From the sequence record NC_028927.1: a DNA stretch of 64,000 nucleotides; one strand, given 5' to 3'. This document shows, piece by piece, positions 6,921 to 27,443 of this stretch. Source of the stretch: Escherichia phage slur02. Every line of letters starts with the position of its first letter. Position 1 is the stretch's first letter. Position numbers and translations under genes: made by a program. The notes beneath the pieces are model-generated. The model was not told the origin of the DNA. It did not search any database and worked only from the letters and a program-made list of their open reading frames with translations.

Positions 6921-7136
6921 TTAAATTTTCCAATTACCATTTTCATCAATAAATTTAATCCAGTCATTTACTGACCACTTAGTTGTATCACCTTTTGGAG
7001 TAACATTTAAAGTGTATAACCCCTGCTTAAAAAGCATTCGTTTGATATTCATATTTTCCTCAGCTGTAACGATAACACTCGTTTGATTTACGTTTAGCAA
7101 CTCGTTGAGAAGTATTATAATCAAAATCATCGTCAA
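6921..7136 (-). CDS. Hypothetical small protein
   Basis: ORF track 71 aa; overlaps next ORF so start uncertain. Confidence 0.35.
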   Translation of the reverse strand: MTMILIIILLNELLNVNQTSVIVTAEENMNIKRMLFKQGLYTLNVTPKGDTTKWSVNDWIKFIDENGNWKI

Positions 7137-7353
7137 TGTAAACTGATTTTTTCAACTTTCTTACTTCACCGCGTAATTGACGATTTAGCTCATCTTTAAC
7201 TTCTGAATCAATACCTTTCATTCTACGCCATTTATCTGAGCGAAAAATGTTTTCAACCATATCTTTATGACTTACACCATCAGGAGCTTTACGCTTTCCG
7301 AAATAGTCATAATCACGTACTTTTAAATCTTTACGACGATACGTTTTACCCAT
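7060..7353 (-). CDS. Hypothetical basic protein
   Basis: ORF track 112 aa trimmed to internal Met (MGKTYRRKDLKV...), which overlaps the upstream stop. Confidence 0.4.
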   Translation of the reverse strand: MGKTYRRKDLKVRDYDYFGKRKAPDGVSHKDMVENIFRSDKWRRMKGIDSEVKDELNRQLRGEVRKLKKSVYIDDDFDYNTSQRVAKRKSNECYRYS

Positions 7354-8289: not shown

Positions 8290-8505
8290 TTAAGCCTTTT
8301 TATCAAGAACAGAATTCAGCTTGTTAGTAATTTTATCCAGACGCTCATTAAACTCACTAGAAGATAAGCCCTTTTCTGGAGAAATTAAACTAATAACGAA
8401 AAATATAGCAATAAAAGGAATAAGGAAAATAGCTCCAACTGCCATAAACAGAAAGAATGTTACAGTTGTAAGAAAATCAGCTAAACCTTTACGAAATTTA
8501 TACAT
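8290..8505 (-). CDS. Hypothetical small membrane protein
   Basis: ORF track 71 aa; hydrophobic core FFLFMAVGAIFLIPFIAIFFVISLI. Confidence 0.45.
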   Translation of the reverse strand: MYKFRKGLADFLTTVTFFLFMAVGAIFLIPFIAIFFVISLISPEKGLSSSEFNERLDKITNKLNSVLDKKA

Positions 8506-8620
8506 ATTTTACCCTTAATTAATTAACAAAGCATTGATAAGTACTAAACTATATTGGGAATAAAATTCTGGACCAAAATGAAAAATCATATCATTTATAG
8601 TATCCATAATGCAATTCAAT

Positions 8621-9091
8621 TTAATCATGTTTCCACACCCCATCGGTATTTGACCAAAGTCGCTGATTATCTGATCCTCGCCACAGCTTTTTAGTCGGAA
8701 GATTTTTCTCATACTTCCCATCAATAATAACATCAACATATTTAAGCATTTCTAGTTGTTTAATATCTTCAAACTTATATCCTGTCCACAACCAAATGCT
8801 TTTATTGGGATAAAGATTTTTTACTGTTTGAACCACAGAGTGAATCACATCTCTGTTATCAGGATAAAGAGGGTCACCCCCAGTTATAGTTAATCCTTCT
8901 ATATAATCATTATTCAAACATTCAATTAATTGTTCTAGTGTTTCACCAGTGAATGGAACACCATTTCTAGCATTCCATGTTGATTTATTATAACACCCTT
9001 CGCATTTATGCAAACAACCCGTAACGAAAAGAACGACCCTGCAACCAGGGCCATTCACAAAATCGCAAGGATAAAATCTATCATAATTCAT
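8621..9091 (-). CDS. nrdG: Anaerobic ribonucleotide reductase activase (radical SAM)
   Basis: 156 aa; CLHKCEGC radical-SAM cysteine motif; directly downstream of nrdD. Confidence 0.9.
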   Translation of the reverse strand: MNYDRFYPCDFVNGPGCRVVLFVTGCLHKCEGCYNKSTWNARNGVPFTGETLEQLIECLNNDYIEGLTITGGDPLYPDNRDVIHSVVQTVKNLYPNKSIWLWTGYKFEDIKQLEMLKYVDVIIDGKYEKNLPTKKLWRGSDNQRLWSNTDGVWKHD

Positions 9092-10905
9092 TGGTGTTTA
9101 ACCCTATGCATGATTTCTTTATTTTTACCGAGATTAAATCCGCGTTCGTTCGGATTTCCCAAATAACCACATGTTCTTCTTATTGTGTTCATCTTTTTAG
9201 GATCAGTTTCTCCACAGATAGAACAAACAAATCCGTTTTCAGTAGGAGTCATTTCATGGGTACTTCCGCATGTAAAACATTTATCTACTGGCATATTAAC
9301 ACCAAAATAATCTAAATGTTGTGCAGCATAATCCCAGACGGCCTCAAGCCCCTTTAAATTGTTTTTCATATCAGGAAGTTCAACATAAGAAATGTGACCA
9401 CCTGTCGCAATGAAATGATATGGCGCTTCACGAGAAATCTTTTCAAACGGAGTAATATTTTCTTCTACTGAAACATGGAAACTGTTAGTGTACCAGCCTT
9501 TATCGGTAACATCCTTTACATTTCCGTATTTTTCTGTATCGAGTTTACAGAAGCGATAACAAAGGTTTTCAGCAGGAGTAGAATATAAACTAAAAGCAAA
9601 TCCGGTTCTTTCAGTCCACTGTTTAAGATGAGCATTCATTTTAGTTAAAATTTCTCGTCCAATATCACGACCGACAAGAATATTCAATTCGTGAATACCA
9701 ATGTATCCTAAAGACACTGAACTTCTACCGTTTTTAAATAACTCAATTATGTCGTCATCAGGTTTAAGACGAACCCCGAATGCACCTTCTTGGTAAAGAA
9801 TAGGAGCAACAGTTGCTTTAACTCCTTTTAAGGAACTAATTCTACACATCAAAGCTTCAAAACATAAATCCATTCGTTCATTGAACAATTCGATAAATTT
9901 CTGTTCATTGAACTGTGTTCCAATATAAGAATCTAATGCGATACGAGGAAGATTCAGTGTTACAACACCGAGATTATTACGTCCATCAAGAATTTCATTG
10001 CCAGTCGAATCTTTCCATACGCCCAAGAAACTACGGCAACCCATTGGAGAAACAGGAACAGATGAACCAGTGATAGCTTTATTATTCTTAGCTGAAATAA
10101 TATCAGGATACATCCTTTTGCTTGCGCACTCTAGAGCAAGTTGCTTAATGTCGTAATTCGGATCGTCTTTATAAAGATTAACGCCTTCTTCAACGAACAT
10201 AACAAGCTTAGGGAAAATAGGAGTTATTCCATCACGACCAAGACCTTTAATACGATTTTTCAGAATTGCTTTCTGAATCATTCGTTCAGTCCAGTCAGTT
10301 CCCGTACCAAATGTAATTGTTACAAAAGGAGTTTGTCCGTTTGAACTAAAGAGAGTATTTACTTCATATTCATAAGCTTGGAATGCATCGTATACGTCTT
10401 TTTCTGTTTTAGATTGAGCATAATTCAGTGCATCGGCGATTTGCCATTTTTCTGCATCCTCAATATGTTTTGCATAGGTGCGTTTAACATAAGGAGAAAG
10501 TACTTTATCTACATTCGCAAAAGTCGTTCCGCCGTATTGGTGAGAAGCAACCTGTGCAGTAATTTGTGCCATAATTGCAGTAGCAACTCCAATTGATTTA
10601 GGAGTTTCAATCTGTGCATTACCAAGCTTAAATCCGTTCTCAAGCATTCCTTTTAAATCTACTAAACAGCAATTAGTAAATGGAAGAGCAGGGGAATAAT
10701 CAATATCATGGAAATGAATAATTCCGCTTTCATGCGCTTTCATAATAAAAGACGGGACCATATTTTTGGCAATGTGTTTAGACACAATACCAGCCATAAG
10801 GTCCCGTTGAGTTGGAAAAACACGAGAATCTTTATTAGCATTCTCGTTTAAAAGGTCTTTATTAGTTTTATGAATCAATCCTTCAATTTCTTTTTCAATT
10901 GTCAT
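9088..10905 (-). CDS. nrdD: Anaerobic ribonucleoside-triphosphate reductase
   Basis: 605 aa uninterrupted; C-terminal glycyl-radical motif RTCGYLG and Cys-rich zinc site CFTCGS...CSICG. Confidence 0.92.
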   Translation of the reverse strand: MTIEKEIEGLIHKTNKDLLNENANKDSRVFPTQRDLMAGIVSKHIAKNMVPSFIMKAHESGIIHFHDIDYSPALPFTNCCLVDLKGMLENGFKLGNAQIETPKSIGVATAIMAQITAQVASHQYGGTTFANVDKVLSPYVKRTYAKHIEDAEKWQIADALNYAQSKTEKDVYDAFQAYEYEVNTLFSSNGQTPFVTITFGTGTDWTERMIQKAILKNRIKGLGRDGITPIFPKLVMFVEEGVNLYKDDPNYDIKQLALECASKRMYPDIISAKNNKAITGSSVPVSPMGCRSFLGVWKDSTGNEILDGRNNLGVVTLNLPRIALDSYIGTQFNEQKFIELFNERMDLCFEALMCRISSLKGVKATVAPILYQEGAFGVRLKPDDDIIELFKNGRSSVSLGYIGIHELNILVGRDIGREILTKMNAHLKQWTERTGFAFSLYSTPAENLCYRFCKLDTEKYGNVKDVTDKGWYTNSFHVSVEENITPFEKISREAPYHFIATGGHISYVELPDMKNNLKGLEAVWDYAAQHLDYFGVNMPVDKCFTCGSTHEMTPTENGFVCSICGETDPKKMNTIRRTCGYLGNPNERGFNLGKNKEIMHRVKHQ

Positions 10906-11375
10906 TTTAAACTCTTTCTAAGCTGCTTCTTAAATGAAGCTATTAACTGTGTTTTAGTGTCAGATTCATTATATTCAAATCCTCTTTGAAGCATCTCGGC
11001 CATCATTTCCTCTTTTCCTAAACGAGAAAATTCCTTTGATTTATCTCCAACAAAGTTAGGGTGAATATTATTTTGGGTGTAATCGGATTTTAAATAAGTA
11101 AGTAAATTTTCTAACCATTCAAGATAATCAACACCCTGTCCCTTTAAGCCAGAACGATTAAATTTATGCTTCATTTGACCTTCTGCGGCATTGCAGAGAT
11201 TACAAAGCAATCCACGTACTTTTCCTGCTTTTGGTCCATTTAATTCATGGTCATGGTCAAGGTGATTAGCTTGAACATCAGGATTTAGTTCTCGTTGGCA
11301 AATTAAGCATTTACCATTTTGTGCATCATAAAATTTCTGTTTTTCTTCTTTATATAATTTGCCAGTCAATAACAT
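10902..11375 (-). CDS. 49: Endonuclease VII (Holliday junction resolvase)
   Basis: 157 aa; HLDHDHELNGPKAGKVRGLLCNLCN core as recalled for T4 gp49. Confidence 0.9.
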   Translation of the reverse strand: MLLTGKLYKEEKQKFYDAQNGKCLICQRELNPDVQANHLDHDHELNGPKAGKVRGLLCNLCNAAEGQMKHKFNRSGLKGQGVDYLEWLENLLTYLKSDYTQNNIHPNFVGDKSKEFSRLGKEEMMAEMLQRGFEYNESDTKTQLIASFKKQLRKSLK

Positions 11376-11416
11376 AATAAACCCTTACCTTAAATAGATA
11401 AGGGTATTTATTATTT

Positions 11417-11920
11417 TCAAGTATTGTAAAACATTTGATTCAATCGCTTATATTGCCGAATCTTTTGGTCAGAAAAAGAAATTTGGGTTTCAAGCCATTC
11501 AATATATTCTGCCGCAGCTTGCATTAAATTTCCTTCATAGCCATCGTTATTTTCTTGTGCAGCTAATTTAGCTAATGCGTATGAAATACGTTCACCTTGA
11601 AAATCGGCTTTAGACTTCTGAACAGCTTGATTAGTTCGCTCTACAACTTCTTCAATTTCGCCATTTTCGACTGATTCAGTATTCCACAAGCACCAATACG
11701 TAATTGGCTTATCATAGATGTTAATAATCTTTCCATCAGAAAGTTCAATTTCAATAATTCCAGTATCAGGTTCTATATCATCTTCACATTCTTTTGCAAG
11801 TTCACGAACTTTAAAGACAGTACCTGCACTAAGTTCCGGCCAGTAATTACATAGCCCTGTATCAGCACGATTAATTCTAAACCACTTATCTACTGTAATC
11901 ATGTCCCATCTCCATATCAA
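11417..11920 (-). CDS. Hypothetical protein
   Basis: ORF track 167 aa. Confidence 0.55.
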   Translation of the reverse strand: MIWRWDMITVDKWFRINRADTGLCNYWPELSAGTVFKVRELAKECEDDIEPDTGIIEIELSDGKIINIYDKPITYWCLWNTESVENGEIEEVVERTNQAVQKSKADFQGERISYALAKLAAQENNDGYEGNLMQAAAEYIEWLETQISFSDQKIRQYKRLNQMFYNT

Positions 11921-12024
11921 TTAAGTCATTTATCGTTGGTTCATTATACACCGTTTCTTCATCAGTGTAAACCGGTTCTTCCGGCTCTGGCTCTACAGTT
12001 TCCCATCTAGCCGCCCACCAAGGT

Positions 12025-12917: not shown

Positions 12918-13221
12918 TTTCTTCTCGGTCAAATCGGTGTTTACAATGGCGGCATTTATAACGAAGATTACTAGTCTGCCAATGGACCAATTGCACCTGT
13001 TCAGTTCCACATTCAGGGCAATTAGGAACGTTTTTAGAAGCCCTTTCGCGACGTTTAACCATAGCCATAATGGCATCCCATGCTGGAGGTTTAAAATCTA
13101 AATCGTCACAACCATGAATCTTTCCACGCATTTCCATATCATCTTCCTCACCAGCCATAATAATTTTAATTAAACTGGAATTACTTGAAGCTGCAATGTC
13201 TTCTAATAGACGCTTTTTCAT
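12904..13221 (-). CDS. Hypothetical zinc-ribbon protein
   Basis: 105 aa; CPECG...CRHCKH four-Cys motif. Confidence 0.5.
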
Positions 13222-14147
13222 TTCAATACCTCAATAGCATTACGTAAACCATTTGCTTTTGCATTAAGAGCTTTTAACAATTTGGTGTGTTCTGCAATTT
13301 GGGCTTCAACTTCAATCAAACGAGCATTGAGATATTCGCGTTCTTCACTCAGATTATCAACCTTTTCTACTTTAGGCTCTTTTACAACTGTCTTATATGT
13401 ATTAGGGTTCTTCAGTTTAATTAGAATGCGTGAACTGTATAACATTGAACCATTATCTTCGGTTTCGTCATACATTTCTACTACATCCATAATTTTTAAC
13501 ATCATGCGGAGTTTATAAGACAACGAACGAATAGTTTTGTTGTGCTTATTAATTTCTTTAGCTGTCATGGTGCCGAGATTACGTGAGTAATAATAAGGAA
13601 CCTGGATATTAATTAATACTGATGAACCACCTGGCTTGTGTGTTACTTCATCAGCAATAACCCAATCCTTAACATGAACTGTATTTGTACGGTCATCGCC
13701 CGCGGTAAATAGTTTGCGAGCATGCTTAAAAAGCATATTCACTTGGTCATTGAATTGACAAGCAAATTTATCAGCAAATTTAGTTTCAGGAATGGTAGAT
13801 AACCAATCAGCCAAATGGGTCTTTTTAACATCGTTAACAATAGTAAATTCAACCAAATCAGTTATAGATGTCTCAGATTTAATAAAGCTCGGCTTCATAA
13901 AGTTTTTAATGTTATCGCGAGCTACAGTAGAAGATAACATACGAGAACGTTTAAACCATTGAAGCAAATTGCCCAACGAATGAGAATAAGCGTTTTGAGT
14001 ATCTTTACAGATATGATTTTCCTGGCCAACATATTGAAGGAAATCACGAAGAATATTATTGATTACTGCTCTGTGTCCGATCTGATAATTACGGTGTTTA
14101 GTAATAAGACTGTCAAAATAATCAATATAATGTTTACGAGTTTTCAT
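13218..14147 (-). CDS. Hypothetical protein with C-terminal coiled coil
   Basis: 309 aa; C-terminal heptad-like segment [42 protein letters not shown]. Confidence 0.6.
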   Translation of the reverse strand: MKTRKHYIDYFDSLITKHRNYQIGHRAVINNILRDFLQYVGQENHICKDTQNAYSHSLGNLLQWFKRSRMLSSTVARDNIKNFMKPSFIKSETSITDLVEFTIVNDVKKTHLADWLSTIPETKFADKFACQFNDQVNMLFKHARKLFTAGDDRTNTVHVKDWVIADEVTHKPGGSSVLINIQVPYYYSRNLGTMTAKEINKHNKTIRSLSYKLRMMLKIMDVVEMYDETEDNGSMLYSSRILIKLKNPNTYKTVVKEPKVEKVDNLSEEREYLNARLIEVEAQIAEHTKLLKALNAKANGLRNAIEVLK

Positions 14148-14199
14148 ATTCTTCTCACTTGGTTAATGATTTATACTCCGAGCCATCCTTGGCTTTAAA

Positions 14200-15201
14200 T
14201 TACTTAATTAACTGTAAAGCTTGTTCAAGACGATCAAGACGATTAACGGATTCTTCCCAAATCTTTTTAGCCTGCTCATATTCTTTCTGCGCTTTATTAG
14301 AAATTTCTAGAACTTCTTTATAAGCTTTTTCTAGTGCAATAACTTCTGGACGAATTTCTACCGGTTCAGGAGAATCATCAAGATTATCCATTAGTTCCTC
14401 AAGGGTAGTTTCTTCTTTAGGAGTATTCACAATTTCATCACATTTTTGTTGGTAAATTTCTTTATCAGTCGGTGAGTACGCACACTTTACTTCACGAAGA
14501 CTAACTACAATTTTATATCCTTCCCAACCGCATATATTCTTAAAAGGATATGTATGAATATTTTCTACTGTTTCCATACAAAGTAATGCGGTCTCTAATT
14601 GACGAGTTATAGTGCTAGCAATTGAGAAAAATTTATTAATGTTCTTTTGGTTAGTTTCTGGTGTAAAAAATCCATAATTCACAAAAATAGCTACTTTATT
14701 TTTATCAAGTTCATATTCTTTTATGATAATCATATCAGAAGCCAAAGGATGAATTTGACGATAATCACCATAACATAATTTAGAAGCTGATTTTAGAATT
14801 TGCTTCTTAAAAAGTCTGAAATTACTAATCCAACGACGAGTAAAAATATTCTCAGGGTCTTCTTTATTATTAAGATGATAAGAATTAACATCACCGAACC
14901 AATTATATCCTACTACATCTTTGGTTCGTTTAATTTCTTTCCCAAAATTACCAAGAATATCCCGATTAACCAAATATGAAAGAAGACGAGACTCTTTAAA
15001 GGTTTTCTTGATAACATCTTTATCTACACGGCTAGAAATTTTACGAATTTCATGAATAAATTTAGTAGAAGAAACAATACTTGCATCAACACTATTGAGC
15101 CATTGATTGATAATAGAAAGAACGATATTTTGACCAAACATCGGTATAGCTTTATCATCAATAACGCTATTGAATGATTTGATATATTCGTTACGAGTCA
15201 T
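14200..15201 (-). CDS. Hypothetical protein with C-terminal coiled coil
   Basis: Start moved to Met 11 because the track start lies inside the promoter -10 at 15230-15235; GAGGAG RBS. Confidence 0.6.
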   Translation of the reverse strand: MTRNEYIKSFNSVIDDKAIPMFGQNIVLSIINQWLNSVDASIVSSTKFIHEIRKISSRVDKDVIKKTFKESRLLSYLVNRDILGNFGKEIKRTKDVVGYNWFGDVNSYHLNNKEDPENIFTRRWISNFRLFKKQILKSASKLCYGDYRQIHPLASDMIIIKEYELDKNKVAIFVNYGFFTPETNQKNINKFFSIASTITRQLETALLCMETVENIHTYPFKNICGWEGYKIVVSLREVKCAYSPTDKEIYQQKCDEIVNTPKEETTLEELMDNLDDSPEPVEIRPEVIALEKAYKEVLEISNKAQKEYEQAKKIWEESVNRLDRLEQALQLIK

Positions 15202-15229
15202 ATTAATCTCCTCATTAGAAAGTAAGAAC

Positions 15230-15258
15230 ATTATACCACATCTTTGTGGCGAAGTAAA
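15230..15258 (-). promoter_or_regulatory. Early (sigma70-type) promoter
   Basis: Minus strand TTTACT-17-TATAAT. Confidence 0.6.
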
Positions 15259-16284
15259 CTAGTTTAGTGCATTTAGTGCATTGTTCAGTTTAGAACGTTG
15301 CTTTGTCAGATTTTGAACCCTTGACTGAGCTTGTTCTAACACCTTTTCAGCTTCTAGCACTTCATTGGTCGCTTTAACGAGTTCATCATCTACTGCCTTA
15401 AGAGACTTCTCAATCGCGTCAGCGTGCCATTTTTCTACAGGTTTAAGACTCGGATTTTCAACAGGAAGAAAATTCACTTTATTGAATTTCCATGCATCAT
15501 TATTACCTGAACTATACATCCAAAATTTAGAATCGTTTGATGAGTAATTGGATAAATTTAAATTTAAGTTATCTTGCACTTCTTGCTTTTTCTCTTGCGG
15601 GACTTCGTCCTTTCTCAAAAAATCGTATTTAAATGAAACGATCATATCAAGTTCATATGTTGTCGTATCTAACTTAAATCGTTCAAAACGAGGTAAAATC
15701 TTAGATTGAACAGCAGCAACAACATCCATATACTTAAATGCTTCTGTCAACTGTGATTTAAGGCATTCACAAATTGAAAGAGAATTTTTTGTATTAGGTT
15801 TAAAGCTAATTCGTGCAGTTCTATTATTTTCTTTTAACGGTCTTACTTCCATCTGAAGAGTATAACCATCAAATTTCAGATTCTTTAAGTTAATATCAGA
15901 ACCTTTTAATCGACTAGCCGTAGACAAAATTTGCTTTAATTGTTTACGGAATAGAGCAATAAATCTCCATTCAAGACGATAATGATTTGGATTAAAAAAT
16001 CCTGTTGATAAATCAACCTTACTCTGACCAACGCCTTGAACAAATAGAGGATTTTTATAATCAATAGTTTTACAGAAATCGGTGAGCTGCTCACGAGCAG
16101 TCATTTGTGTAATATATCCCGCTTTACTAAAATGACGTAACCATTCACTGCTATTCATATATTTAAAGTGAATGGAACTATTAACTCTATCAGGGTCTAA
16201 ATTATTTTGGCACAAAAATGTCATAACATTACGGGTATAGCTAGCATTACGAACCATATCTTCAATTTGAGAACGAGTTTTCAT
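15259..16284 (-). CDS. Hypothetical protein with C-terminal coiled coil
   Basis: 341 aa; starts MKTR like 13218-14147; coiled-coil tail. Confidence 0.6.
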   Translation of the reverse strand: MKTRSQIEDMVRNASYTRNVMTFLCQNNLDPDRVNSSIHFKYMNSSEWLRHFSKAGYITQMTAREQLTDFCKTIDYKNPLFVQGVGQSKVDLSTGFFNPNHYRLEWRFIALFRKQLKQILSTASRLKGSDINLKNLKFDGYTLQMEVRPLKENNRTARISFKPNTKNSLSICECLKSQLTEAFKYMDVVAAVQSKILPRFERFKLDTTTYELDMIVSFKYDFLRKDEVPQEKKQEVQDNLNLNLSNYSSNDSKFWMYSSGNNDAWKFNKVNFLPVENPSLKPVEKWHADAIEKSLKAVDDELVKATNEVLEAEKVLEQAQSRVQNLTKQRSKLNNALNALN

Positions 16285-16292
16285 GGTGTTCC

Positions 16293-17201
16293 TTAAGATT
16301 TAAGTAAATCAACAATTTTAATTAATTTTTCACGCTCAGATTTAGCTTTACTACTCAGTCCAGATAGTCTGAAAATTTCATCGTCATATTGTTGAATAGA
16401 AATATTCAGCTCTTCAATCTGCTTATTAAAATAATCAATTTGTTCAGAATGTTTTTCGTTACTACGAACTGGTACAGGTTTTGTAGGCAATTTAGTTGAA
16501 CTGGATTCATCCGGGCGATAAATTAAAATACAACTTGAACCAATAGGGCATTTAGCACCAGATGAATATTCTAATGTTCCGGCTTCTTTTAAAACTTCAA
16601 AAGCTAAACAGAGATGATGCCCCATATTAACATAATCTGTAGAGTGAGCTCTGATATAATAATCATCGCCGCGAATACTAAATTTAAAGCATTTAAGGTC
16701 TTCTGTATTATTGGTCTTAAAAATCATTTGTTTATCTAGACCTTTAGCTAATCGAGCGCCTAATGCTAATAATCGTCGTTGATTTTCCCACAAATCCGTA
16801 ATCATTTGATCGAATGATAATTTAGGCATTAGTCGACCATAAAGGTCATATCCTTTATTATAATTGCGAAGGATTTCACTCGCATTAATACGAGACAACG
16901 CTCCAATTTTATTAAGGGCTTTCATGATGCGATCAGATAAACTCATTCCAGACCCGTTTGTTCGCTGTAAATGTTTATCTAATCCAAACCCAATATCAAC
17001 TTTAAACTTATCTAAAATTTCTGCATGAACATCTCTGTCAATAACATTCAAATCCAAAGTTGGGTTAAATCTATGAAAAAATTTATCTGGCTCTCCACGA
17101 CGAAGTACAGTCCATTCATTCAATTTTTTATTAACTAAAGATTTAATTACTGCATTGACATTATTAATTACTACTGACATATTTTCCTCACTCAATTTCA
17201 A
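16293..17201 (-). CDS. Hypothetical protein with C-terminal coiled coil
   Basis: 302 aa; coiled-coil tail. Confidence 0.6.
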   Translation of the reverse strand: MKLSEENMSVVINNVNAVIKSLVNKKLNEWTVLRRGEPDKFFHRFNPTLDLNVIDRDVHAEILDKFKVDIGFGLDKHLQRTNGSGMSLSDRIMKALNKIGALSRINASEILRNYNKGYDLYGRLMPKLSFDQMITDLWENQRRLLALGARLAKGLDKQMIFKTNNTEDLKCFKFSIRGDDYYIRAHSTDYVNMGHHLCLAFEVLKEAGTLEYSSGAKCPIGSSCILIYRPDESSSTKLPTKPVPVRSNEKHSEQIDYFNKQIEELNISIQQYDDEIFRLSGLSSKAKSEREKLIKIVDLLKS

Positions 17202-17650: not shown

Positions 17651-18178
17651 TTATGCGAGTACCGTCTTTAACCGTTCTTCAAACTTCCGAAGAGTATTCT
17701 GGCGTTCAGCTCTTTGCTTTTTGTAAGTTTCAATACGCTCTGAAATGAGAGTGTATCGTTCATTTACTGATTCTTTCATAAAATCAGGAATTTCACGAGA
17801 AGCTTTAATCTCGTCAAATTTATCAATAACAGCTTGCTCTTCAGCAATTAAGTTATCATACATCAAAATATCTTTCTTGATGAACTCAATATCTTCTTGA
17901 GTTACACGAGATAATTTAGATGCTTTATCCTTTTTGTACTGTTCGTTAGTATCACGAGACCAGTGTAATGTACGATTTTTATTCGTATTTTTGTAAATTT
18001 CTACAATACCAATCTCATCAATAATAACGATCCAATTCCAACGAGATTTGTAAATTTGCCCTCCATCAACTGTGATTTCACCTCCGATTGAGATGTCATT
18101 AAAGAACTTGCTTTGTGCTTCTGATTTAAATTTACCATCATTGTAATTTACCAGGTTGAAAATATCTTTAGCGTTCAT
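17651..18178 (-). CDS. Hypothetical protein
   Basis: 175 aa; GGAGG RBS; early promoter at 18207-18235. Confidence 0.55.
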   Translation of the reverse strand: MNAKDIFNLVNYNDGKFKSEAQSKFFNDISIGGEITVDGGQIYKSRWNWIVIIDEIGIVEIYKNTNKNRTLHWSRDTNEQYKKDKASKLSRVTQEDIEFIKKDILMYDNLIAEEQAVIDKFDEIKASREIPDFMKESVNERYTLISERIETYKKQRAERQNTLRKFEERLKTVLA

Positions 18179-19694: not shown

Positions 19695-19724
19695 GAAATA
19701 AAAAAAGGGAGCCCGAAGGCTCCC
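19695..19724 (-). terminator. Rho-independent terminator after nucleotidyltransferase gene
   Basis: Minus strand GGGAGCC-UUCG-GGCUCCC then UUUUUUAUUU. Confidence 0.7.
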
Positions 19725-19726
19725 TA

Positions 19727-27411: not shown

Positions 27412-27440
27412 ATTATACCACAGTCAAGAGGAAAAGTAAA
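27412..27440 (-). promoter_or_regulatory. Early promoter upstream of regB
   Basis: Minus strand TTTACT-17-TATAAT. Confidence 0.6.
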
Positions 27441-27443
27441 CAG

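What the first reader, a model, noticed from the sequence alone, without database searches (positions are those of the whole stretch)
13218..17201. Four consecutive genes ending in a predicted coiled coil
Four back-to-back minus-strand ORFs of about 300-340 aa have dissimilar bodies but each ends in a roughly 40-residue heptad-like amphipathic tail (for example LEKAYKEVLEISNKAQKEYEQAKKIWEESVNRLDRLEQALQLIK). Two start MKTR. A promoter sits between members (15230-15258). A shared C-terminal oligomerisation or docking module on variable N-terminal domains would suggest a family of interchangeable effectors or adaptors.
Basis: seen in the sequence. Interest (0 to 1): 0.5.

Follow-up and report, generated by a model that had tools for sequence, protein, structure and literature searches.

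The report
T4 nrdC.3–nrdC.6 coiled-coil paralog array
The four genes are the known but mostly uncharacterised phage T4 genes nrdC.3 to nrdC.6: old tandem duplicates that share one whole-length design ending in a conserved coiled-coil-like helix. One of them (nrdC.5) has already been shown to switch off the bacterial defence protein Dsr1.

Summary
Window 13218-17201 (minus strand) carries four adjacent ORFs, each ending in a 48-57-residue heptad helix, and a T4-early-type promoter sits at 15230-15259.

The window is a Tequatrovirus (100% identical to phage slur04), and the ORFs are T4 nrdC.3, .4, .5 and .6. Their bodies are not unrelated. Four lines of evidence show one superfamily found only in T4-like phages (Straboviridae):
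- profile-profile comparison;
- a colinear merged alignment;
- bridging sequences;
- two AlphaFold models that hit the same uncharacterised T4-like phage proteins.

The shared design is an N-terminal helical domain, a conserved helix pair, a ββαββ domain, a disordered linker, and a long C-terminal helix. The tails are homologous to each other, share one heptad register, and are the best-conserved part of each family. One tail carries an indel of exactly seven residues.

The gene order C6-C5-C4(-C3) is kept across the non-Tequatrovirus loci sampled. Published work shows that T4 nrdC.5 neutralises Dsr1.

Best reading: a duplicated set of early accessory, probably counter-defence, proteins that oligomerise through the tail. 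That function is inferred for .3, .4 and .6. Interest is moderate.

The parts
13218..14147 (-). nrdC.3 orthologue (309 aa). It is a paralogue of nrdC.4, and its central ~240 codons are a hypervariable allele.
   Evidence: It falls in phrog_1435 together with NrdC.4. BLASTP against NrdC.4 gives E=2e-7, and body-only hhalign gives E=3e-14. DNA identity to T4 is 70%, against 91-98% for the neighbouring genes.
14200..15201 (-). nrdC.4 orthologue (333 aa from the ATG preceded by GAGGAG). The ORF is open up to 15231, but that ATG lies inside the -10 box.
   Evidence: Matches phrog_1435. Close homologues carry PF26897.
15259..16284 (-). nrdC.5 orthologue (341 aa, Pfam DUF7235). It is 94% identical to T4 NrdC.5, the published anti-Dsr1 gene.
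   Evidence: Pfam PF23882 at 400.5 bits, cut-off 30. Identity to T4. Literature: PMC9391042. AF2 model.
16293..17180 (-). nrdC.6 orthologue (295 aa from the ATG preceded by GAGG). The TTG at 17201 is an unlikely start.
   Evidence: Matches phrog_2257. Homologues carry PF26899. AF2 model.
13221..13376 (-). NrdC.3 C-terminal heptad helix (52 aa, PKVEKVDNLSEEREYL...LRNAIEVLK).
14203..14346 (-). NrdC.4 C-terminal heptad helix (48 aa, EVIALEKAYKEV...LEQALQLIK).
   Evidence: The last 20 residues are ~85% conserved across alignment members whose overall identity to the window protein is ~36-50%.
15262..15435 (-). NrdC.5 C-terminal heptad helix (58 aa).
   Evidence: AF2 predicts a single helix at 284-340 with pLDDT ~80-90. 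Heptad score 0.82-0.88. The family carries an indel of exactly 7 residues in this helix.
16296..16448 (-). NrdC.6 C-terminal heptad helix (51 aa).
   Evidence: AF2 predicts a single helix at 245-294..
15436..15615 (-). NrdC.5 disordered, Pro/Asn/Ser-rich linker between the body and the tail. Each paralogue has an equivalent variable-length linker.
   Evidence: pLDDT <50 for residues 224-283. In NrdC.6, residues 227-240 are <50. The merged alignment shows 0-60-residue length variation here.
15230..15259 (-). T4-early-type sigma-70 promoter in front of nrdC.4 (GTTTACT, 17 nt with TGG, then TATAAT).

Best explanation
The region is the nrdC.3-nrdC.4-nrdC.5-nrdC.6 block of a T4-type phage. It is a tandem array of anciently duplicated, strongly diverged paralogues of one protein superfamily found only in T4-like phages (Straboviridae).

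Each protein has the same five parts in the same order:
1. an N-terminal helical domain, starting M-(K)-T-R in three of the four;
2. a conserved helix pair (motif RW/F..FR....IL..A.[KR]L..GD);
3. a ββαββ domain;
4. a disordered linker of variable length;
5. a ~50-residue C-terminal amphipathic helix with an unbroken heptad pattern, ending in L-x-x-[AI]-[LIV]-x-x-[LI]-[KN].

The genes are probably transcribed early, from sigma-70-type T4 early promoters (inferred from promoter matches; PMC9391042 calls nrdC.5 an early gene). T4 phages that have lost nrdC.5 still grow on E. coli MG1655, and natural isolates carry deletions inside the array, so at least part of it is dispensable.

Shown: the homology, the architecture, the heptad periodicity and conservation of the tails, and the conserved gene order.

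Shown by others for T4: nrdC.5 expressed alone lets a deletion phage grow on cells carrying the SIR2-domain defence protein Dsr1.

Inferred:
- The tail forms a parallel coiled coil that makes each protein a dimer or trimer.
- The globular head binds a host target.
- The paralogues were retained because each neutralises a different host defence or other host factor.
- NrdC.3 is currently in an arms race or undergoing allele exchange.
For: Identity:
- The window is 100% identical to phage slur04, and the genes map to T4 nrdC.3-.6.

Homology of the bodies:
- C3 vs C4: BLASTP E=2e-7; hhalign on bodies only, E=3e-14.
- C4 vs C5: hhalign E=3.9e-5 over 244 colinear columns; E=7.7e-5 with the tails removed.
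- C4 vs C6: E=0.002 over 196 colinear columns.
- The pairwise residue offsets agree with each other (C4 62 = C6 83; C4 60 = C5 44; C5 52 = C6 89).
- The merged alignment shows four colinear motif blocks.
- Distant representatives hit several body HMMs. P0244 hits C5 at 5e-8, C4 at 3e-4, C6 at 3e-4 and C3 at 1e-3. P0232 combines a C4-like body with a C5-like tail.

Structure:
- The two AF2 models have the same order of secondary-structure elements.
- Both models hit the same four uncharacterised proteins of phages I take to be T4-like (Mineola, Cronus, Merlin, fHe-Yen9-01) at E 3e-7 to 8e-4 over their full length.

Tails:
- Heptad scores lie at the 98-99.9th percentile.
- All four have the same register relative to the shared C-terminal motif.
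- The C5 family has an indel of exactly 7 residues.
- Positions a/d and e/g are more conserved than b/c/f in three of the four families; in the small NrdC.3 set only a/d stands out.
- The tail is the most conserved 20-aa block in three of the four families and second-best in NrdC.3.

Gene order:
- The order C6-C5-C4(-C3) is kept in 13 of 15 loci. One locus (L006) has C6-C5-C3 and one carries a deletion.

Function:
- PMC9391042.

Dispensability and plasticity:
- Natural deletion in phage ACG-C40.
- C5::C3 fusion P0120.
- nrdC.3 DNA is 70% identical to T4, against 94-98% for most neighbouring genes.
Against: - The C6 links are individually weak (hhalign E 0.002-0.07, probabilities <15%). They rest on consistency between comparisons, on structure and on bridging sequences.
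- The NrdC.5 model is only moderate (mean pLDDT 69.5), and its alignment was seeded with the putative paralogues.
- No oligomer prediction or dedicated coiled-coil program could be run.
- The e/g charge-pair count says nothing about homo- versus hetero-pairing.
- Counter-defence activity is known for one member only, in T4, and its mechanism is unpublished in what I could search.
- No similarity to any solved structure or characterised inhibitor was found, so the head domains give no functional clue.
Confidence: 0.6

Rival explanations
1. One reading: unrelated N-terminal effector domains that each acquired the same C-terminal docking or oligomerisation cassette by domain shuffling.
For: - Pairwise identity of the bodies is <25%, and most BLASTP pairs are non-significant.
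- P0232 combines a C4-like body with a C5-like tail.
- P0241 carries a C5 tail on an unrelated 110-aa N-terminus.
Against: - Body-only profile comparisons are significant or mutually consistent.
- The motif blocks are colinear.
- The secondary-structure order is the same, and the BFVD hits are shared.
- Bridging sequences hit all four body HMMs.
- The N-terminus of P0241 has no match in 50,697 phage records. It looks like a deletion or frameshift product, as do P0229, P0239 and P0240.
Confidence: 0.07
2. The paralogues are subunits of one hetero-oligomeric complex, held together by a heteromeric coiled coil of the different tails. They would not be independent effectors.
For: - C6, C5 and C4 types co-occur in the same order in every non-Tequatrovirus locus examined except L006.
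- Each family's tail is distinct yet very strongly conserved, including the e/g positions and some outward-facing positions. This is what partner-specific pairing would select for.
- All tails share one register and one end point.
Against: - nrdC.5 alone, from a plasmid, restored growth of a T4 deletion clone on Dsr1 cells (PMC9391042). However, the paper text I could read does not say which neighbouring genes that clone retained.
- Phage ACG-C40 keeps only nrdC.6.
- L006-type phages have C3 in place of C4.
- The e/g charge analysis shows no preference for hetero-pairs.
Confidence: 0.2
3. The family has a host-takeover or housekeeping role unrelated to immunity, for example binding DNA or a host machine early in infection. 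On this view the anti-Dsr1 effect of NrdC.5 is a special or indirect case.
For: - The family is conserved across phages of Escherichia, Yersinia, Klebsiella, Erwinia, Serratia, Citrobacter, Pectobacterium, Enterobacter and Acinetobacter that I take to be T4-like. That is broader than expected for a strain-specific anti-defence gene.
- NrdC.3 residues 30-86 match the SAM-like N-terminal domain of tyrosine recombinases far below threshold.
Against: - Genes in the array are dispensable, are deleted in nature and in the laboratory, and nrdC.3 is hypervariable. This is typical of accessory counter-defence genes.
Confidence: 0.2
4. The tails are not intermolecular coiled coils. They would be single stable helices, or amphipathic helices that pack back on the protein's own conserved helix pair.
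For: - AF2 monomer models cannot tell these cases apart.
- The helix pair and the tail are the two best-conserved segments in NrdC.5 and NrdC.6, which could reflect an intramolecular contact.
- Several core positions hold Ala, Ser or Arg.
Against: - A 23-60-residue disordered linker separates tail and body in the two modelled proteins.
- The a/d hydrophobic pattern is unbroken over 6-8 heptads, with a heptad-sized indel.
- The composition is not the E/K/R-only type of a single alpha-helix.
Confidence: 0.12

Closest known systems
Phage T4 NrdC.5 (DUF7235, PF23882), the anti-Dsr1 counter-defence gene of Srikant, Guegler & Laub 2022 (PMC9391042)
   Same: The window's third ORF is its orthologue: 94% identity, the same position in the genome, and a Pfam score of 400 bits. 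The other three ORFs are its paralogues with the same architecture.
   Different: Activity against Dsr1 has been shown only for the T4 protein. Its mechanism, its oligomeric state and the role of the tail are unpublished as far as I could find. The paralogues have no known target.
DSAD1 of Bacillus phage SPbeta (inhibitor of the SIR2 NADase DSR2)
   Same: It is a phage protein that neutralises a defence-associated sirtuin. DSAD1 does so by binding the defence protein directly (PMC10973363 and related papers listed). This is the most plausible model for how NrdC.5 works.
   Different: DSAD1 did not appear among the listed BFVD hits, and nothing related turned up in the PDB searches. No direct comparison with DSAD1 was made. 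The host and the phage lineage are different. This is an analogy in function only.
T4 internal proteins IPI/IPII/IPIII (accessory proteins that share a short common targeting sequence on otherwise different bodies)
   Same: They are a set of T-even accessory proteins with one conserved terminal module and variable remainders. At least IPI and IPIII act against host defences (PMC9391042).
   Different: In the internal proteins the shared module is an N-terminal capsid-targeting sequence that is cleaved off. Here it is a C-terminal heptad helix, and the bodies are themselves homologous.
T4 dmd-tifA-adfA 'anti-TA island'
   Same: It is a cluster of adjacent, early, non-essential T4 genes that each counter a different host defence (PMC9391042).
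   Different: As far as I know, those genes are unrelated to each other (not tested here). The nrdC.3-.6 block is a paralogue array.

Membership tests
Orthologues of T4 nrdC.3, nrdC.4, nrdC.5, nrdC.6 | Same position and order between nrdC.2 and nrdC.7, downstream of nrdC.10/.11 and upstream of nrdC. | tested here: met
   Annotated regions of vB_Eco_NR1, slur04, T4 and ACG-C40.
Orthologues of T4 nrdC.3, nrdC.4, nrdC.5, nrdC.6 | Full-length sequence identity to the T4 proteins. | tested here: met
   Identities are 60% (C3, a divergent allele), 95% (C4), 94% (C5) and 97% (C6).
Pfam DUF7235 (PF23882) | Score above the gathering threshold (30 bits). | tested here: met
   NrdC.5 scores 400.5 bits, E=6.9e-120, across the full-length profile. 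The other three ORFs do not match this model directly.
Pfam PF26897 (NrdC.3/.4 type) and PF26899 (NrdC.6 type) | Score above the Pfam threshold. | tested here: inconclusive
   These models are not in the local Pfam copy (one search gave no hit). All close homologues in the protein collection carry the precomputed assignment. PHROG equivalents: phrog_1435 (E=1e-116 and 6e-169) and phrog_2257 (E=3e-153).
One superfamily comprising all four proteins | Statistically supported homology outside the tail. | tested here: met
   Body-only hhalign: C3-C4 E=3e-14, C4-C5 E=7.7e-5, and C6 weak (0.04) but with consistent offsets. Bridging sequences. Shared BFVD hits of the C5 and C6 models.
Coiled coil | Unbroken heptad periodicity of hydrophobic a/d residues over at least 4-5 heptads in a predicted continuous helix. 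| tested here: met
   6-8 heptads, at the 98-99.9th percentile of the window background. AF2 predicts single helices of 57 and 50 residues.
Coiled coil | Evolutionary signature: indels in multiples of seven, and a/d/e/g more constrained than b/c/f. | tested here: met
   7-residue indel in the C5 family. Mean conservation for a/d, e/g and b/c/f is 0.81/0.71/0.75 (C3), 0.71/0.69/0.57 (C4), 0.49/0.47/0.38 (C5) and 0.75/0.72/0.52 (C6). C3 does not show the e/g part of the pattern. One counter-example is a 33-residue gap in the L016 C4 tail.
Coiled coil | Actual oligomerisation (dimer, trimer or hetero-oligomer). | not testable with these tools
   No multimer prediction was available. The e/g charge count was uninformative.
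Anti-Dsr1 counter-defence protein | Restores phage growth on cells expressing Dsr1. | not testable with these tools
   Shown only for T4 nrdC.5 (PMC9391042). It is inferred for the 94%-identical window protein and unknown for the paralogues.
Known defence or anti-defence profile libraries, and solved structures | Any significant match. | tested here: not met

The most novel reading that the evidence does not exclude
The nrdC.3-.6 block would be a duplicated battery of oligomeric inhibitors. The conserved coiled-coil stalk gives multivalency, or docks to a common partner. The diverging heads each disable a different host immune sensor (Dsr1 for NrdC.5; other SIR2/NADase or unrelated systems for NrdC.3, .4 and .6). 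The hypervariable NrdC.3 head would record an ongoing arms race. This would be a phage counterpart of a multigene immune-evasion family, conserved across T4-like phages.
Probability: 0.3. Interest if true: 0.6.

Novelty: new member of a known kind. Interest (0 to 1): 0.4.

Why it matters
Only one of these four conserved T4 genes has a known role. If they form one family with a common stalk-and-head design, two things follow.

First, three long-standing 'hypothetical' T4 genes become candidate counter-defence genes, each with an obvious experiment: delete it, plate the phage on wild E. coli or defence libraries, and complement.

Second, the conserved tail becomes a handle for mechanism, through truncation and swapping in the existing Dsr1 assay.

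The result also corrects a widespread annotation error. Many GenBank records call these genes 'thioredoxin' only because their names derive from the neighbouring nrdC gene.

Tried and rejected
- NrdC.8 (17651-18178) also ends in a high-scoring heptad tail, so I tested whether it belongs to the family. hhalign against all four families and the merged profile found nothing (best E=0.0045, over 47 N-terminal columns, probability 8%). I treat it as separate.
- PDB by sequence, NCBIfam and PADLOC gave nothing above threshold. The sub-threshold XerD/SAM-like match of NrdC.3 residues 30-86 has no fold support and was dropped.
- Weak BFVD matches of the NrdC.5 model to ~130-aa tail-completion and tail-terminator proteins (E 0.007-0.05) were judged a generic α/β resemblance.
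- Counting g-e' charge pairs to predict homo- versus hetero-pairing of the tails found too few charged pairs to say anything.
- P0241 looked like a genuine 'foreign body + C5 tail' chimera. Its N-terminus has no match in the phage collection. Similar short products (P0229, P0239, P0240) look like frameshift or deletion ORFs that simply run into the old stop codon, so this is not evidence for modular shuffling.
- The search for related loci with the merged alignment failed because no stretch was conserved enough.
- Literature searches for accession, DUF and PHROG identifiers returned only unrelated papers. Two searches failed on term length. Miller et al. 2003 was not held. The AntiDefenseFinder and EVADES main texts do not mention nrdC.5.
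- From memory only: the NrdC.4 tail contains R-L-D-R-L-E at positions g-a-b-c-d-e. This fits the R-h-x-x-h-E 'trimerisation motif' described for short coiled coils. It is an untested lead.

Full report
**What the region is.** The 7.4 kb around the finding is 100% identical to Escherichia phage slur04 and 97-99% identical to hundreds of Tequatrovirus genomes. In records annotated with T4 names, the four ORFs are nrdC.3, nrdC.4, nrdC.5 and nrdC.6. They lie between nrdC.2 and nrdC.7, on the strand that also carries nrdC (the phage thioredoxin gene). The ORFs are 13218-14147 (309 aa), 14200-15201 (333 aa), 15259-16284 (341 aa) and 16293-17180 (295 aa). The annotated ATGs are preceded by GAGGAG and GAGG.

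**Checking the observation.**
- A simple heptad score (fraction of a/d positions that are hydrophobic, minus hydrophobics elsewhere, with a Pro/Gly penalty, in 35-residue windows, best of seven registers) peaks in the last ~50 residues of each of the four proteins.
- The terminal windows lie at the 97.8-99.9th percentile of all windows from the 72 ORFs of >=100 aa in the 64-kb window. They beat shuffles of their own residues (p 0.0005-0.0125).
- AlphaFold2 predicts one uninterrupted helix for residues 284-340 of NrdC.5 and 245-294 of NrdC.6. Each follows a low-confidence linker.
- 'Two start MKTR' is correct, and NrdC.4 starts MTR.
- The promoter is GTTTACT-17 nt-TATAAT, with TGG directly before the -10 hexamer. 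To my knowledge GTTTAC plus an extended -10 is the T4 early-promoter signature. GTTTAC-N15-18-TATAAT occurs four times in the window, all on the minus strand, against 0.14 expected.
I could not run a dedicated coiled-coil program.

**The bodies are not unrelated.**
- PHROGs already places NrdC.3 and NrdC.4 in one family (phrog_1435). BLASTP aligns them over 226 residues (25% identity, E=2e-7).
- I built family alignments from database homologues and from related loci.
- Profile-profile comparison gave C3-C4 E=7e-14, and 3e-14 with the tails cut off. It gave C4-C5 E=3.9e-5 over 244 colinear columns, and 7.7e-5 with the tails cut off. It gave C4-C6 E=0.002 over 196 colinear columns.
- The C6 links are weak one by one, but the residue offsets of the three pairwise alignments agree exactly (C4 62 = C6 83; C4 60 = C5 44; C5 52 = C6 89).
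- A plain MAFFT alignment of 26 members of all four families lines up the same blocks. These are the N-terminal M(K)TR..I, F[KS]x[SA][RG]xL[ST]...A[RS][DE]xL..F.K, RW/F...FR....IL..A.[KR]L..GD, and L...L..A[LF]..M..V, followed by a β-strand, a variable linker and the tail.

**Size of the superfamily.** A profile of that merged alignment, run against 1.84 billion representative proteins, found only 26 clusters at E<=0.001. The hits with a source name are T4-like phages or phage-sized contigs, so the superfamily is tiny and appears phage-restricted. Several distant full-length representatives hit more than one body HMM. P0244 hits C5 at 5e-8, C4 at 3e-4, C6 at 3e-4 and C3 at 1e-3. P0238, P0243 and P0245 behave similarly. 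P0232 has a C4-like body and a C5-like tail. These sequences bridge the families.

**Structure.**
- The NrdC.5 model (mean pLDDT 69.5) and the NrdC.6 model (79.8) have the same order of elements: N-terminal helices, a helix pair (104-127 and 123-144), ββαββ (143-218 and 165-221), a disordered linker (224-283 and 227-240), and the long terminal helix.
- Against predicted viral structures, both models hit the same uncharacterised ~310-375-aa proteins of Klebsiella phage Mineola, Erwinia phage Cronus, Citrobacter phage Merlin and Yersinia phage fHe-Yen9-01. The E-values were 3e-7 to 8e-4, over the full length.
- The NrdC.6 model also hit proteins of Acinetobacter, Pectobacterium and Enterobacter phages that I take to be T4-like.
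- Sequence searches of the PDB, NCBIfam and PADLOC were empty.
- A caveat: the alignments given to AlphaFold contained the presumed paralogues, so the two models are not fully independent tests.

**The tails.**
- The best heptad register, found independently for each tail, is the same relative to a shared C-terminal motif, L(d)-x-x-[AI](g)-[LIV](a)-x-x-[LI](d)-[KN](e). All four proteins stop 0-1 residue after it. The same ending recurs in the distant representatives. The tails are therefore homologous, not convergent.
- Within the NrdC.5 family, the only indel in the tail is exactly seven residues.
- Positions a/d and e/g are more conserved than b/c/f in the NrdC.4.5 and .6 families. In the small NrdC.3 set only a/d stands out.
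- The last 20-40 residues are the most conserved 20-aa block in the NrdC.4.5 and .6 families and the second-best in NrdC.3. The best C-terminal blocks show 85% mean pairwise identity in NrdC.4, 71% in NrdC.5, 77% in NrdC.6 and 88% in NrdC.3.
- In the NrdC.4 and NrdC.6 tails, some outward-facing positions are invariant too. This hints (inference) at a partner beyond self-association.

**Genomic behaviour.**
- In 15 loci sampled from T4-like phages, the order C6-C5-C4 is constant. NrdC.3 is an extra copy seen in the Tequatrovirus loci and in one other lineage (L006), which has it in place of C4.
- The block is plastic. Phage ACG-C40 has a deletion running from the 5' end of nrdC.5 to the 3' end of nrdC.3. 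P0120 is an in-frame C5::C3 fusion joined at a (K/Q)VN microhomology. Sf25 has an internal duplication in NrdC.6. Several database entries are frameshifted fragments.
- nrdC.3 is a local island of divergence. Its DNA is 70% identical to T4, against 91-98% for all ten neighbouring genes, and its first 60 nt and last 30 nt are nearly identical to T4.
- Across 652 phage records, nrdC.3 falls into three allele classes.

**Function.** Srikant, Guegler and Laub (eLife 2022, PMC9391042) found that a laboratory-evolved T4 deletion clone could no longer infect E. coli ECOR17. [quoted passage not shown] I found no later paper on the mechanism, or on nrdC.3.4 or .6. The window's NrdC.5 is 94% identical to the T4 protein.

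**Interpretation.**
- Firmly supported: a tandem array of whole-length paralogues with a conserved C-terminal heptad helix.
- Well supported by the literature: at least one member is a counter-defence protein.
- Inferred: the tail makes each protein a parallel coiled-coil oligomer, the head binds a host target (for NrdC.5, probably Dsr1 directly, by analogy with DSAD1 and DSR2), and the paralogues persist because they have different targets.
- Main rival: the paralogues are subunits of one hetero-oligomer. The conserved co-occurrence of three distinct, strongly conserved tails favours it. The sufficiency of nrdC.5 alone and natural phages with partial arrays argue against it. It cannot be excluded with these tools.
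It is wrong in treating the bodies as unrelated.

**Novelty and score.** The genes themselves are long known, and each has a Pfam or PHROG family. New here, as far as my searches reach, are three things: the union of the four into one superfamily with the anti-Dsr1 protein, the defined head-linker-stalk design, and the nrdC.3 hypervariable island. These results are useful and directly testable, but not surprising for a T4 accessory region. Interest is 0.4.

Noticed in passing
window 13247-14087 (inside nrdC.3): This is a hypervariable island. nrdC.3 DNA is 70% identical to T4, while all ten neighbouring genes are 91-98% identical. The first 60 nt and last ~30 nt of the gene are 97-100% identical. 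Across 652 phage records the protein falls into three classes (>=95%, ~75-79% and ~60% identity to the window copy). This looks like allele or cassette exchange, or an arms race.
   Followed up: partly
L010 5805-6216 (phage vB_EcoM_ACG-C40); proteins P0120, P0122: Natural rearrangements occur inside the array. ACG-C40 has a deletion from the 5' end of nrdC.5 to the 3' end of nrdC.3. P0120 is an in-frame NrdC.5::NrdC.3 fusion joined at a (K/Q)VN microhomology and is seen on a 167-kb contig. Shigella phage Sf25 NrdC.6 (P0122) carries an 83-aa internal duplication.
   Followed up: partly
window 17651-18178 (nrdC.8, minus strand): NrdC.8 (175 aa) also ends in a high-scoring heptad helix (score 0.72-0.76, 99.6th percentile). 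It shows no detectable homology to the NrdC.3-.6 superfamily by hhalign. It may be a second, independent coiled-coil-tailed early protein in the same transcription unit.
   Followed up: yes
L016 (IMGVR_UViG_2974741249_000001) 8446-8871 and 10781-11752: In this one phage, both the NrdC.8 orthologue and the NrdC.4 orthologue lack 33 residues inside their C-terminal helices. 33 is not a multiple of seven. Whether this is coincidence, an assembly artefact or linked change is unknown.
   Followed up: no
window 15229-15231 versus 15199-15201: The upstream ATG that gives the 343-aa form of NrdC.4 (annotated that way in several T4 records) overlaps the TATAAT of the early promoter and has no Shine-Dalgarno sequence. 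Transcripts from this promoter would start downstream of it, so the 333-aa MTRNEY form is the likely product.
   Followed up: partly
annotation of hits: Many GenBank and UniRef records label nrdC.3-.10 homologues 'thioredoxin' or 'putative thioredoxin'. Of the gene products I scanned (nrdC.3-.8), none has a thioredoxin Pfam match, and the label appears to have spread from the gene names. One record calls NrdC.5 'putative 39.7 kDa protein'.
   Followed up: partly
window 7114-7143, 11943-11972, 27412-27441 (minus strand): Three further perfect GTTTAC-N-TATAAT sites lie on the early-gene strand (4 observed against 0.14 expected in the whole window). They are likely T4 early promoters of neighbouring units.
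   Followed up: no
window 19706-19725: A perfect 8-bp GC-rich hairpin (AGGGAGCC-TTCG-GGCTCCCT) followed by a T-run on the minus strand lies upstream of the nrdC.10 coding start, at the position where vB_Eco_NR1 annotates a terminator between its nrdC.11-like gene and nrdC.10. It is a probable intrinsic terminator just upstream of a TTTACA-17-TACTAT promoter-like site at 19674-19646.
   Followed up: no
protein P0241 (173 aa): An ORF whose last ~55 residues are an exact NrdC.5-type tail, while its first ~110 residues match nothing in 50,697 phage records. It is either a rearranged locus in an unsampled phage or an assembly or frameshift product.
   Followed up: partly
window 13890-14060 (NrdC.3 residues 30-86): There are sub-threshold matches to the N-terminal SAM-like (core-binding) domain of tyrosine recombinases: Pfam PF02899 at E=0.075 and NCBIfam XerD-type models at E=0.0013-0.013, all far below cut-off. 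Fold search does not support them.
   Followed up: partly
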